Assembly (NCBI RefSeq): GCF_018350175.1
Contig: NC_058368.1
Span: 73,534,001-73,598,000 of the forward strand
Source: Felis catus
Taxonomy: Eukaryota
DNA length: 64,000 nucleotides
Reading direction: 5' to 3'
Notes under the pieces: generated by a model
What the model saw: only the letters and a program-made list of their open reading frames with translations
What the model was told of the DNA's origin: nothing
The model's database searches: none
Part shown: positions 13,001 through 31,000 of the stretch, one piece after another
How positions within the stretch are numbered: the stretch's first letter is position 1
Layout: each line of letters starts with the position of its first letter
Position numbers and translations under genes: made by a program

Positions 13001-16000
13001 CTCTCTCAAAAAAAAAAAAAAAAAAAAAAAAAAAAAATTAAAAAATAAAATTCTAAAAAGAAAAAATTCTCTGTGACAATGGAGCTGCTGGTTTTAGTTG
13101 GACACAGTGGGTGATAAATGGATGTTTTGTAGTCTGAGTTGAAAAATCTCTGAAAAGTTGATACATGGGGACAATGCTTTGTTTCATTTCTCCAGTATTT
13201 TTGAAGTTGCAAATAATCATGTATGCAGCTCAACTAGTAACTTATGCTGAAATTTTAGTAGTTGGTATCTGCATTTATATATCATTTTTTTCCATTGGTT
13301 TGGATAACATCTACTTTAATTAGTGGTTAAACTTAGCTAACTTTATTAAACTGGATGGTTTATTGTTGCTGTGCATGCATTTCTGATATGTTTAATAAAT
13401 ACAAAAATATTTTAAGGGAGTAAAGATTTTACCTTGGCTTTAATGAGAGAAGCTTTCATTATGTTAACACATTTAGTTGCCATGAGTGTTATATTTCTAT
13501 ATGCATATTTTGTATTCATTCAAGTGAAGAAAGCAACGTTTTGTTTTCTCAGGTACTGCATAAGCCGACCGCAATATAAGACTTCTTGTGGCATCTCCTC
13601 ATTAATTTCTTGTTGGAATTTCTTGTACAGCACAATAGGAGCTGGAAAGTAAGTATGTTAATTTAGTGGTATCCCTAAACTCCAAATTCCAAAGTTACTT
13701 TGTATTGCTTTTTCTGTCATTGAAGATTTCTTTTTAAATATTTTATTTCTTTTATTTTTATTATTTTTAGAGTGGGGTGAGGGGCAGAGGGAGAGAGAGA
13801 GAGAGAGAGAGAGAGAGAGAGAGAGAGAAAATCTTAAGCAGGCACCACGCAGGGCTTGATCCCATGACCCTGAGATCATGACCTGAGCCAGATACTCAAC
13901 CAACTGAGCTACCCAGGCACTCCTGTAATTGGACATTTTTAAAAATAGATTTTTCATAAATCGAGAAGAAAATTGCTATTTTTTATAAGCCTTTAGCTGA
14001 AAATAATAAGTATGCATTATTGGGGCGCCTGGGTGGTTCAGTCGGTTGAACGTCTGACTTCGGCTCAGGTCAGGATCTCGCAGTTTGTGAGTTTGAGCCC
14101 CACGTCAGGCTCTGTGCTGTCAGCTCAGAGCCTGGAGCCTGTTTCAGATATGTCTCCCTCTCTCTTCCCCTTCCCGCTCATGCTCTGTCTCTCTCTGTCT
14201 CTCAAAAATGAATAAACGTTAAAAAAAAATTAAAAAAAAGTAAGTATGCATTATTGTGACAAAATAAACATTAAAAATGCAGTTGACCCTTAAACAATGC
14301 AGGGGTTAGGGCAGTCTAAAATCCACATATTATTTTTGACTCCCCCAAAACTTAACTACTAACAGTCTACCGTTGACCAGAAACCTTACCAATAAACAGT
14401 AGATGAACACATATTTTGTATGTAGTATTTTGTATGTATTATATGCTGTATTTTTACAATGAAGTAAGCTAGAGAACAAAGATGTTACTAAGAAATTCAT
14501 TAAGAAAGAGAAAATACATTTATAGTTCTGCACTGAATTTATAAAGAAAAAATCTGTGTGTAAGTGCACAGTTTAAACCCACATCGTTCAAAGGTCACCT
14601 GTGTTAGTAAAATTGTTTACAAATCAGATGCAGGACAGTTGTTGGGATGAGCACTGGGTGTTACACATAGGGATGAATCCCTGGAACCTACTCCTGAAAT
14701 CATTGTTGCACTCTATGCTAACTCAGGTGTAAATTAAAAAAAAAAAAGAAGAAAAAAAAATAACAACAAAACAAAAACCAAATCAGATGCACATATGAAC
14801 GTTGAGACAGGTTATCATTTGCATGCGACTGGAACCGTAAAATGAAAGGCAATGTTTCTTTTCTAGTCTGCCACCTGTTACCCAAGAAGAAGCTTTACAT
14901 ATTTTGGGCTTTCAACCTCCATTTGAAGATATTAGGTTCGGCCCTTTCACTGGAAATACAACACTTATGAGGTATGAAGTCCTCACTTATAGACAATACC
15001 TTATTTCTAGTTCTGTGAAATAGCAGTGCTGTAGAAGTGGATTGTGGACCAGGTTTCCAGCTGCTGGGCCCCAACTGCTATGGATATGCCAAACTTGGGT
15101 GCTGCCCGAATTTCTCTGGAATGGCATTGATGTTATCTGTGCTATGGAAATATTGCTATGAGCACATTTTCTTGTCATTTGCAGATGGTTTAGACAAATT
15201 AATGACCACTTTCACGTAAAAGGATGCTCGTACGTTCTATATAAGCCTCATGGGAAGAATAAAACAGCCGGAGAAACTGGTAGGTAAACACATGGAAGAT
15301 TTTTACACACACACACACACACACACACACACACACACACACACACACACACTTTAGGATCCATCACAGAGATTGGCTGATTTGATTAATGGGGCGTTCT
15401 GTAAACCCTGAACACGGTCTTTACTTTTATATGTCTTTATCCAAGGGGGAAATTGTAATAGAGATCTGTAGGGTGCTTTCCCATATACCGGTGAATATTT
15501 TTAATTGTCCTCCTCTTTGCATGTAGAACTTTTAGAGTTTTGAAACATGTCCTAAACACTGTTTCAACACATTATTTGTATTATTTGGGCCTGTGGGGTG
15601 TGTGTGTGTGTGTGTGTGTGTGTGTGTGTGTGTGTGCGTGCGCGCGCACGCGCATGCTGGTAAAAGTCTTTCAGGAAGAAACATGGAATTTGTAGCTCCT
15701 CTTCCTAAAAAAGAATGCCAAGATTGTAGAATATTTGATGTTAGGCCTACATAATAACATCTAATAACAGGACAATGGACTTTGAAAGTGACAAAGTTCC
15801 ATGATAGAATAGTCTTGGCTATCACAGAGTAATTGATTTTTTTTTTTAACGTTTTATTTATTTTTGAGACAGAGAGAGACAGAGCATGAACGGGGGAGGG
15901 GCAGAGAGAGAGGGAGACACAGAATCAGAATCAGGCTCCAGGCTCTGAGCCGTCAGCCCAGAGCCTGACGCGGGGCTCGAACTCACGGACCGCGAGATCA

Positions 16001-28000: not shown

Positions 28001-31000
28001 TGACCTTTATTAAGCCTACTTTTAATCTGTTTTATATTTAGCAGGGGTCCCCTCTCACCACAAGAAGTAGAGTATTGGATCTTAATTGGAGAATCAAGTA
28101 GAAAACATCCTGCTATTCACTGTAAAAAGTATGTTAACTTCCCTTATTCTCTTTAATTTAGGTAAGATTTACATATAGTGAAATGCACAGATCTTAATTG
28201 TATAATTAGGTGGAGTTTGATAAATGAATATACCTGTGTAATCATCACTGCAATCAAGATATGGAACATTTTCATTGTATTGAAAGTACCCTCATTCTCC
28301 TTTCCTGTCAGTCCCCATAGACAGCCTCTGCTCTGTCATGATGGGTTGCTTTGCATGTTCTTGAAATTCATGTAAATGGAGTCATAAAATATTCTTTCTT
28401 ATCTGGCTTCTATCATTTAAGTAACCTTGTGAGATTCATCTACTTTGTCATGCATATCATGATTTTTTTTTTTTTTTTTTACTGCTGAGTGGTATTAACT
28501 AGTGTAAGTACCACGATTTTTTATCCATTTTTCTGTTGATGACCATTTGGATTATTTTGAGTTTGGTCTTATGTGGGTAAAGCTATTAGGAACGCTAATG
28601 TTTATATCGTTAGAAAATTTCTAGGTAACAGCTTCACTGAGATAAAATTCACATACCATAAGGTTCACCCTTTTAAAAATGTATACAATTCAGTGGATTT
28701 TCGTATATTCAGAGTTGAGCATCAACCACCACGATCTAATTCTAGGAACTAAAACCCCATACCCATTAGCAGTCACTCCCCAGCCCCTCCCCTCACTCCC
28801 TGGCAACACTGATCTACTTTCTATCTCTGTGCATTGGCCTGATATGGACATTTCCTATAAATGGAATCATACAATATGTGGACTTTTGTATCTTTTTTCA
28901 CTTAGAGTAATGTTTTCAGTGTTCATCTGTGTTGTGGCATAGACCAGAACTTCATTCCTTGATATGGCCAAATAATTTTCTGCTGTATGGATCTGCCACA
29001 TTTTATTGTGCAAGTTTTTGGAGGACATGTTTATATGTTTTCTTCCTCTTGGATAGGTATCTAGAATTGGGGTTGCTGATTATAGGATAGCTGTGTATTT
29101 AAGAAACTGGGAGAAAGTTCTCCAGTGGGGTTATGCCATTTTATACTCCTACAGGCAATGTATGGAGAACCCAACTTTTCTTCATATCTTCTCCAATATT
29201 TGATATTGTTATTTTGTTTTGTTTTTTTTTACTTATTTTTTTTTATTTTCCTGGCTTTATTGAGTTGTAATACACAAATACAATGTATATATTTAAAGTG
29301 TACCGTGTGCTGATTTGATCTACATTTTGTGAAATGGTTGCCACAATCAAGTGTCAATTAACATATCTATCAGCTTACGTAGTTACCTTTTCTGCCTATA
29401 TGTGGTGAGAACACTTAAGATCTGCTCTCTCAGCAAGTTTCAAGTGTACCATACGGTATTATTAACTGTAGCCATTATGCTGTACAGATCTATAAGTTTG
29501 TTATGTTTTTTGATGGTATTGCAAATCGATACCATTTGCAATAAAAAATTTGTTTTCCAGTTTTATTGAGACATAATTGACACATATCGCTATATAAGTT
29601 AATGGTGTAGAGCATGATGGTTTGATTTACATATATTGTGAAATGATGACTACAGTAGGTTAACGAAAGAATTCTCCTTGTGATGAGTACTCTTAGGATC
29701 TACTCTCTTAACAACTTCCCTGTATGTCACACAGCAGTGTTCGCTATAATCACCATGTTGTATATTACATCCCTAGTACTTATTTATCCTATAACTGGAA
29801 GTTTGTACCTCTTGGCACCTTCCTTTAAAAAATTTCACTTCTGAATTAGTTTCTGGTAGTGTACAAAAATGCAATCTATTTTTCTACATAGGCCTTGAAT
29901 CTTGCATTTTTATCAGACTCACTCACAATTCCAGTAATAGTTTTATAATCCAAAGTAATTTGCAATTGCTTTGTGTTTTCTATACAATCAATCATGTTAT
30001 CTGTGAATAAACACATGTTAACTTTGAAATCTTTTGAAAACCCGACTCTAATTGAAAAGGAAATATGGGCTGTTTTTACTCTAGCCTGCAGGATGTCATT
30101 TAACGGGCTGAATAAATATGTATTTCATAATGAAAGTAGCCATTTTTTGAACTGAGAATCTTGGCAATAGTTGGTTAAGCAGACTTGTCATAAAAAAAGA
30201 ATTAGGGCTTAGGATGTAGAACAATCTTGTTATGAAAGAATTATCGTTATGGTAATATTGTAGCAAATTGCTCATGTGAAAAGTTCCATTACAGTGGTAT
30301 TTTGTACTTAGAGAAAAGTGTGCTTTATCCTTCCTTTTTCACTATAGGTGGGCAGATATTGTTACTGATCTCAATACTCAAAATCCAGAATATCTAGATA
30401 TCCGACACTTAGAGAGGGGGCTGCAGTATCGAAAAACAAAGAAGGTAAGAACACCATTGTAGCTGAAGATATTTCCCAAGCCGACAAAAGGCACTGTTTT
30501 ACTCAGTACTCCTTAGGTTGTAAATAACAGAAATCCAGTTCAGATTATCTCAGATAGAAGAGTGAAAATTATGTTCAGGAAAGAGGGGTATCTTTAGAAT
30601 GAAAACACAAGGAGGATAGCCCGGAATCAGAAGGGACTGGGACCTGGTAAAAGAATGGTGGCAGGGGCCAAGTAGCTTCTCTGTCTCATTCTTCTGGGAG
30701 TTACATGTTGTTCTTATCTGTCTGAATATTTACTTTCTGAAGATCAAGAACTTCAACTTATGTCTCCCTTTCAGGTGAGCAGTCTAGATAGGGTGAGAGT
30801 GGCCTGCCCAGGCTCAGTCCCATAGTTTTGGCCCAGCTTGGGTCAGGTGTTCACTTCTGAGCCAAATGAACTGTGGCCATGAAGCAGAGTCATGTGTACA
30901 AACAAGGAGGCTTGGGGAGGTGCTCAGTGAAAGTAGATTGCATGGATTGAGTTGACATTCCACTGATATGGTCCTACTAACATCAAGAACATATAGGAGA

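What the first reader, a model, noticed from the sequence alone, without database searches (positions are those of the whole stretch)
13572..28093. BIVM looks like a papain-fold cysteine enzyme (C39 peptidase / phytochelatin synthase-like) rather than an Ig-like protein
Seen in the spliced translation: [18 protein letters not shown] (Gln 13572-13574, Cys 13587-13589); about 110 residues later [15 protein letters not shown] (His 26633-26635); then YWILIG-E-SS (Glu 28091-28093); then a W-x-D-I motif. Established: C39-like peptidases and phytochelatin synthases show Q-x(4-5)-C-G-x-A/S-S/C-L at a helix start, H-Y/F-x-x-I/V-x-G on a strand, a hydrophobic strand ending in Asp, and a later short helix. 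Inference: BIVM may carry an oxyanion Gln plus a Cys-His-Glu triad and be a peptidase, amidase or transpeptidase. BIVM has no established biochemical function that I know of. This fold may already be noted in structure databases.
Basis: inference. Interest (0 to 1): 0.7.

Follow-up and report, generated by a model that had tools for sequence, protein, structure and literature searches.

The report
BIVM papain-fold cysteine peptidase domain
The mammalian BIVM gene in this window encodes a protein predicted to fold like a papain-type cysteine peptidase with a conserved catalytic set, not like an antibody domain; a 2023 paper already made this prediction, and its likely enzyme activity and target remain untested.

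The parts
3939..4065 (+). BIVM coding exon (residues ~160-202); end of the low-confidence N-terminal region and start of the core
   Evidence: tblastn; AG/GT ends; open splice
13553..13648 (+). BIVM exon with the predicted oxyanion Gln209 (13572-13574) and predicted nucleophile Cys214 (13587-13589), at the start of helix 214-227
14867..14971 (+). BIVM exon (residues ~234-269): helices inserted after the catalytic helix; conserved E241, N264
15185..15279 (+). BIVM exon (residues ~269-301): W270-F-R-Q, helical in the model (264-277); conserved G282, K289
26559..26691 (+). BIVM exon with the strand-turn-strand hairpin Y321-H322-C323-x-N325-H326; predicted catalytic His326 (26633-26635) at the start of strand 326-337
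28042..28128 (+). BIVM exon with the predicted third triad residue Glu362 (28091-28093) just after strand 354-361; tandem acceptor AG sites at 28042 and 28045
30348..30444 (+). BIVM exon with the W375-x-D-I helix (375-383); conserved D381, R393, G398
31312..31605 (+). Last BIVM coding exon with stop: final core strand (H412-C413, strand 413-419) and low-confidence tail; an internal donor after 31543 fits the BIVM-ERCC5 readthrough protein

Best explanation
BIVM residues 191-420 are predicted to form a papain-like cysteine peptidase domain of the C39/phytochelatin-synthase neighbourhood, which is likely an active, substrate-selective cytosolic peptidase that likely trims a protein at the basal body or cilium. 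Shown: the spliced frame, the four residues and their conservation across eukaryote supergroups. Predicted: the fold, and the canonical placement of Cys at the helix start, His at the start of the second strand and Glu at the end of the third. Inferred from established papain chemistry: Glu362 orients His326, His326 activates Cys214, Cys214 attacks a peptide or isopeptide carbonyl, Gln209 stabilises the oxyanion, and the thioester acyl-enzyme is then hydrolysed by water. Weakly inferred: the substrate is an acidic or carboxy-terminal stretch of a centriolar or axonemal protein, fitting a basic pocket. My odds: papain fold 0.97, catalytically active 0.8, ciliary protein-trimming role about 0.45.
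Against: No activity or substrate data were found in any search. Triad distances were not measured. Q209, C214 and H326 are among 18 equally conserved columns of 244, so conservation alone does not single them out, and H322 is as conserved as H326. Profile-profile matches are weak (PCS probability 8%, E 0.004; C39 score 20.1 vs control maximum 19.9). Basal-body staining was seen in one mouse line and not in two human lines. Absence from non-ciliated lineages was not tested here. The interactors listed in PMC10318531 are chromatin proteins and E3 ligases, not ciliary proteins. 4 of 87 homologues replace Cys and/or His. 5 of 120 listed proteins start at Met230 and lack the Cys.
Confidence: 0.5

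Rival explanations
1. BIVM is a ubiquitin or ubiquitin-like deconjugase of the ZUP1/UFSP kind, cutting after a C-terminal glycine.
Against: No Asp-Pro-His box in 0 of 79 scored homologues; His sits on the canonical second strand. C78 structures rank 3-5 Z units below phytochelatin synthase. No C78 Pfam match in 88 sequences at E 0.1.
Confidence: 0.15
2. BIVM is a phytochelatin-synthase-like small-molecule enzyme that removes glycine from glutathione or its conjugates, or transfers gamma-Glu-Cys.
For: Alr0975 is the top or tied-top solved fold for both models. It is the best profile-profile partner of five tested (26.6 vs control maximum 17.4). The basic residue three after the acid is kept in 60 of 79, like AtPCS1 Arg183.
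Against: The Arg ten residues before the His (63 of 71 PCS proteins; essential Arg152 in AtPCS1) has no conserved counterpart: the 10-residue loop is a 2-residue turn. Lys five after the acid (essential Lys185) is in 6 of 79. His-to-acid spacing is 18 in PCS and mostly 35 in BIVM. PF05023 matched 0 of 88. The PCS profile was deeper (71 vs 8-19 sequences), which favours it in the ranking.
Confidence: 0.1
3. BIVM is an active papain-fold peptidase or amidase with a non-ciliary cytosolic or nuclear substrate, like the single-substrate actin-maturing protease ACTMAP.
For: ACTMAP clusters appear in the Atlas lists (0.89-0.91). Ciliary staining was absent in two human lines. Expression is described as ubiquitous (PMC10167099), and chromatin-linked interactors are listed.
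Against: Ciliary phylogenetic profile in PMC5850483. Every named homologue here comes from a ciliated or flagellated lineage.
Confidence: 0.15
4. BIVM is a pseudo-enzyme or binding scaffold that keeps the fold but does not use the triad.
For: Many non-catalytic columns are as conserved as the triad. Degenerate homologues exist (P0169, P0205, P0234, P0259). Annotated short isoforms lack the Cys.
Against: Joint retention of Gln, Cys, His and an interchangeable Asp/Glu in 81 of 87 distant homologues is the usual signature of catalysis.
Confidence: 0.09
5. BIVM is an immunoglobulin-variable-like protein, as its name says.
For: The name, from an electronic search for Ig variable-region likeness (PMC10167099); short W-F-R-Q and Y-H-C stretches resemble Ig motifs (the link of the name to these stretches is recalled).
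Against: W270-F-R-Q lies in helix 264-277 and the core is alpha/beta with pLDDT above 90, reproduced in a distant homologue.
Confidence: 0.01

Closest known systems
BIVM as classified by Ozhelvaci and Steczkiewicz 2023 (PMC10318531; cluster I, group 2, human Q86UB2); Pfam PF28452 BIVM
   Same: Same protein and same claim: a papain-like domain with conserved triad and oxyanion residue, marked active, function unknown. PF28452 is listed on all 120 homologues shown.
   Different: The passages I read name BtrH_N as the remote homologue and give no residue numbers (Figure S1A not seen). Here phytochelatin synthase is the nearest solved fold with a known activity, and BtrH_N scored barely above control (18.7 vs 17.1).
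Phytochelatin synthase (MEROPS C83, PF05023), Nostoc Alr0975, PDB 2BU3/2BTW/6TH5
   Different: Gln-Cys spacing 5 vs 6; no Arg152 loop; no Lys185; His-acid spacing about 35 vs 18; about 14% identity.
C39 double-glycine leader peptidases (PF03412; PCAT1, ComA) and C39_2 (PF13529; PDB 3ERV)
   Different: BIVM is larger, eukaryotic and not fused to an ABC transporter; 1 of 88 matches PF13529, and below its cut-off.
PDB 22OC 'P210 CD lyase' (released 2026-03-18)
   Different: Its nature and activity could not be established; one paper search gave nothing on it.
C78 proteases UFSP1/2 and ZUP1; ACTMAP
   Different: No Asp-Pro-His box; lower structural similarity; substrate untested.

Membership tests
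Papain-like cysteine peptidase superfamily | Core helix followed by an antiparallel sheet, superposable on solved members | tested here: met
Papain-like cysteine peptidase superfamily | Cys at the N-terminus of the core helix, with an oxyanion Gln just before it | tested here: met
   C214 starts helix 214-227; C 84/87 and Q209 86/87
Papain-like cysteine peptidase superfamily | His at the start of the second core strand, polar residue at the end of the third | tested here: met
   H326 starts strand 326-337, E362 follows strand 354-361; 84/87 and 85/87 D/E; in register with C39 His/Asp and PCS Asp
Papain-like cysteine peptidase superfamily | Cys-His-acid side chains within hydrogen-bond distance | not testable with these tools
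Papain-like cysteine peptidase superfamily | Cys-dependent amide hydrolysis or acyl transfer | not testable with these tools
   Needs an experiment; none found
BIVM family (PF28452) | Match to the family model | tested here: met
   Precomputed PF28452 on all 120 listed homologues, including P0022, which is identical to the window over 161-482; family name
Phytochelatin synthase (C83, PF05023) | Match to PF05023 | tested here: not met
   0 of 88 at E 0.1; fetched PCS controls score E 3e-79 and 2e-62
Phytochelatin synthase (C83, PF05023) | Arg ten residues before the catalytic His (AtPCS1 Arg152) on a long loop | tested here: not met
   63 of 71 PCS proteins have it; BIVM has a 2-residue turn with Cys after Y-H in 79 of 84; tested by spacing, not by residue-level superposition
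Phytochelatin synthase (C83, PF05023) | Lys five residues after the catalytic acid (AtPCS1 Lys185) | tested here: not met
   6 of 79 scored BIVM homologues; a one-residue shift would point to K366, kept in 37 of 87
Phytochelatin synthase (C83, PF05023) | Glutathione deglycylation or transpeptidation | not testable with these tools
   Needs an enzyme assay
C39 / C39_2 peptidases (PF03412, PF13529) | Pfam match above the curated cut-off | tested here: not met
   1 of 88 (P0190) hits PF13529 at 20.3 bits, cut-off 24
C39 / C39_2 peptidases (PF03412, PF13529) | Short H-x-x-x-H hairpin carrying the catalytic His | tested here: met
   84 of 87 BIVM and 9 of 13 C39 sequences
C39 peptidases (PF03412) | Fusion to an ABC transporter | tested here: not met
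   No Pfam domain on P0005; only XPG domains on the readthrough P0022
C78 UFSP proteases | Asp-Pro-His box with His after Asp (PMC10318531 section 6) | tested here: not met
   0 of 79
C78 ZUP1-type deubiquitinases | Ubiquitin-binding elements and chain cleavage | not tested
BtrH_N (PF14399) | Detectable profile homology | tested here: inconclusive
   Score 18.7 vs control maximum 17.1, with only 8 sequences
Immunoglobulin V-set domain | All-beta sandwich with the W-F-R-Q motif on a strand | tested here: not met
   W270-Q273 lies in helix 264-277 of a confident alpha/beta model; same in the second model

The most novel reading that the evidence does not exclude
BIVM is a missing eraser of the ciliary tubulin code: a phytochelatin-synthase-like enzyme whose glycine-removing chemistry acts on tubulin tails at the basal body, that is, the unidentified deglycylase or a related trimmer of acidic tails. 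For: nearest fold is a deglycylating enzyme, basic core, ciliary profile, and deglycylases are called unidentified in PMC11244163. Against: no substrate evidence; homologues occur in kinetoplastids, which I recall lack tubulin glycylation; the gene is lost in most Ecdysozoa, though I recall flies glycylate tubulin.
Probability: 0.07. Interest if true: 0.8.

Novelty: already known. Interest (0 to 1): 0.27.

Why it matters
BIVM is a conserved orphan human protein with a misleading name. The papain-fold reading is in print but, in the papers I could search, untested. Named residues (Q209, C214, H326, E362) make a direct test cheap. If it is active at the cilium it would add an enzyme to ciliary protein processing and a ciliopathy candidate. 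As a discovery from this window it adds little beyond confirming the 2023 prediction and narrowing the nearest relatives.

Tried and rejected
Sequence-level searches do not reveal the fold: the local Pfam copy gave 0 families for P0005 and P0080, and PDB sequence searches gave only chance-level hits. No Ig-fold title is among the 50 rows listed in each structural search. Bacterial homologues, sought for gene context, were not found. The GTDB scan gave 14 pattern matches and 0 confirmed; viral contigs 20 matches and 0 confirmed; phages and plasmids no match. Of 80 metagenome loci I inspected 18; those with readable neighbours had eukaryotic-looking genes (Rab, kinases, kinesin), many had stop-interrupted frames, and none showed a bacterial context. 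So the mostly-bacterial 225-aa Atlas cluster and the 6 bacterial members in the JBC table stay unverified; these motif scans would miss divergent members. DUF3335 gave no signal over control (14 of 20 controls reached the real score). Global hhalign against PCS gave nothing usable, and the local one misplaced the His. The table-6 vs table-1 count is not used, as the choice between tables was not controlled. No whole genome is held for the window. Yoder 2002 is not held. No complex prediction was run, as no binding claim is made.

Full report
Observation. tblastn with stored mammalian BIVM proteins located eight coding exons on the + strand. All have AG/GT ends and splice to 343 codons without a stop, followed by TGA. 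The product is identical to stored P0022 (Felis catus BIVM-ERCC5 readthrough) over residues 161-482, and ERCC5/XPG exons follow from about 41247. In 503-aa numbering the residues are Q209, C214, H326, E362 and W375. Residues 1-160 lie upstream of the window.

Conservation. A search of 1.84 billion cluster representatives gave 572 hits at E up to 0.001, of which 150 were listed. I analysed 145 of these (five had been seen earlier) and kept the 87 that span the core; 58 partial or non-core ones were dropped. Q209 is kept in 86, C214 in 84 and H326 in 84. Position 362 is Asp in 45, Glu in 40 and a gap in 2. All four are present in 81 of 87; two exceptions are gaps and four are substitutions. In 80 metagenome loci, 61 had an uninterrupted core and 19 were dropped. 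Q, C and H were 61 of 61 and D/E 60 of 61, but the His motif was the search pattern and the set was not de-duplicated. Of 30 representatives looked up, 11 named an organism: Cyclidium, Paramecium, Seison, Owenia, Kipferlia, Carpediemonas, Novymonas, Lotmaria, Apiculatamorpha, Andalucia and Planoprotostelium. Molluscs and a nemertean appear. Caveat: 18 of 244 columns are conserved at 84 of 87 or better, including H322, N224, N264, K289, D381 and R393, so conservation alone does not pick the triad.

Works like versus member of. I fetched 120 loci by a recalled PCS motif and extracted 71 proteins; two checked are PF05023. I also fetched small sets of C39_2 (8), BtrH_N (8), DUF3335 (19) and C39 (13 of 14 loci). 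Profile-profile scores against BIVM, with the maximum of 20 shuffled controls in brackets: PCS 26.6 (17.4), C39 20.1 (19.9), C39_2 19.6 (15.4), BtrH_N 18.7 (17.1), DUF3335 13.8 (26.9). All are weak and the depths differ. The alignments put C214 and E362 on the PCS Cys and Asp, though not the His. They put C214, H326 and E362 on the C39 Cys, His and Asp, with H322 on the first His of the C39 H-W-x-x-N-H hairpin; that explains H322 without making it catalytic. PCS-specific residues shown essential in PMC3855540 (Arg152, Lys185) have no conserved counterpart. The Arg ten before His is in 63 of 71 PCS proteins, whereas BIVM has a tight turn there, and Lys five after the acid is in 6 of 79. The UFSP Asp-Pro-His box is in 0 of 79. 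So BIVM likely works like a C39/PCS-neighbourhood cysteine enzyme but forms its own family (PF28452), and is not a PCS, C39 or UFSP member.

Mechanism. Committed reading: papain-type acyl-enzyme chemistry by Cys214-His326-Glu362 with Gln209, acting on a specific protein substrate, most likely at the basal body. The chemistry follows from established knowledge of the superfamily. The substrate class is inference from the basic core (pI 9.4), the positively charged pocket reported in PMC10318531, and the ciliary profile and staining in PMC5850483. Against it: staining was seen in mIMCD3 cells only, not HK2 or RPE1; the listed interactors are not ciliary; and absence from non-ciliated lineages was not tested here. 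Rivals are a ubiquitin-like deconjugase (0.15), a non-ciliary peptidase (0.15), a glutathione enzyme (0.10), a pseudo-enzyme (0.09) and an Ig fold (0.01).

Prior art. PMC10318531 lists BIVM among seven human proteins newly recognised as papain-like and not among the three lacking a catalytic site. Its supplement marks BIVM active and states that it keeps the triad and oxyanion residue. I saw the abstract, passages, sections 6, 8 and 13, part 1 of 2 of supplement 1, one row of supplement 2 and part 1 of 3 of supplement 3; Figure S1A was not visible and may already show the residues. For PMC5850483, PMC10167099, PMC3855540 and PMC11244163 I saw passages only. Yoder 2002 is not held and is known to me from its title in reference lists and from recall. 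No experimental test of BIVM activity appeared in searches (40 of 114 listed; 15 of 42 listed); the library lacks most subscription papers, and bioRxiv supplements are closed. This scan's own notes hold nothing on BIVM.

Verdict. Real, correctly interpreted, and already known as a published prediction. Interest 0.27, because the enzyme remains an untested orphan with a cheap decisive test. The boldest reading not excluded, a tubulin-tail deglycylase or trimmer, gets probability 0.07 and would deserve 0.8.

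Noticed in passing
window 31543 (donor) to 41247 (acceptor): The annotated BIVM-ERCC5 readthrough (P0022) splices from inside the last BIVM exon into an ERCC5 exon. It keeps the whole predicted peptidase core fused to XPG, whose XPG_N Pfam match starts only at model position 33 of 101. Readthrough proteins are listed for many mammals and birds.
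   Followed up: partly
window 13553-13648 (codon 230): 5 of 120 listed proteins start at Met230, after Cys214, and would lack the nucleophile. This window has Ile230 and non-mammalian vertebrates have Leu, so that start is not conserved.
   Followed up: partly
window 28040-28045: Tandem acceptor AG sites three bases apart would give forms with or without Ser345; none of the 87 representatives has a residue in that column.
   Followed up: no
window exons 13553-13648, 26559-26691, 31312-31602: Extra conserved Cys/His residues C204 (81/87), H322 (84), C323 (80), H412 and C413 (55 and 56, about 24 gaps). A metal site or structural role is not excluded and could not be checked without coordinates.
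   Followed up: partly
P0234, P0259, P0276, P0169, P0205: Divergent homologues that replace the Cys and/or His; possible inactive paralogues.
   Followed up: no
PDB 22OC: A 193-residue entry titled 'P210 CD lyase' ties with phytochelatin synthase as nearest fold; its identity is unresolved.
   Followed up: partly
L005, L023, L024, L032: In four protist-like loci the BIVM homologue is followed closely by the same small ORF of about 100-112 aa; from recall it resembles a mitochondrial pyruvate carrier subunit, not tested.
   Followed up: no
Atlas cluster: A 225-aa BIVM cluster labelled 63% Bacteria (Cloacimonadota commonest; phylum known for 19 of 86). No bacterial locus was found here, so it may be mis-binned protist DNA or a divergent branch.
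   Followed up: partly
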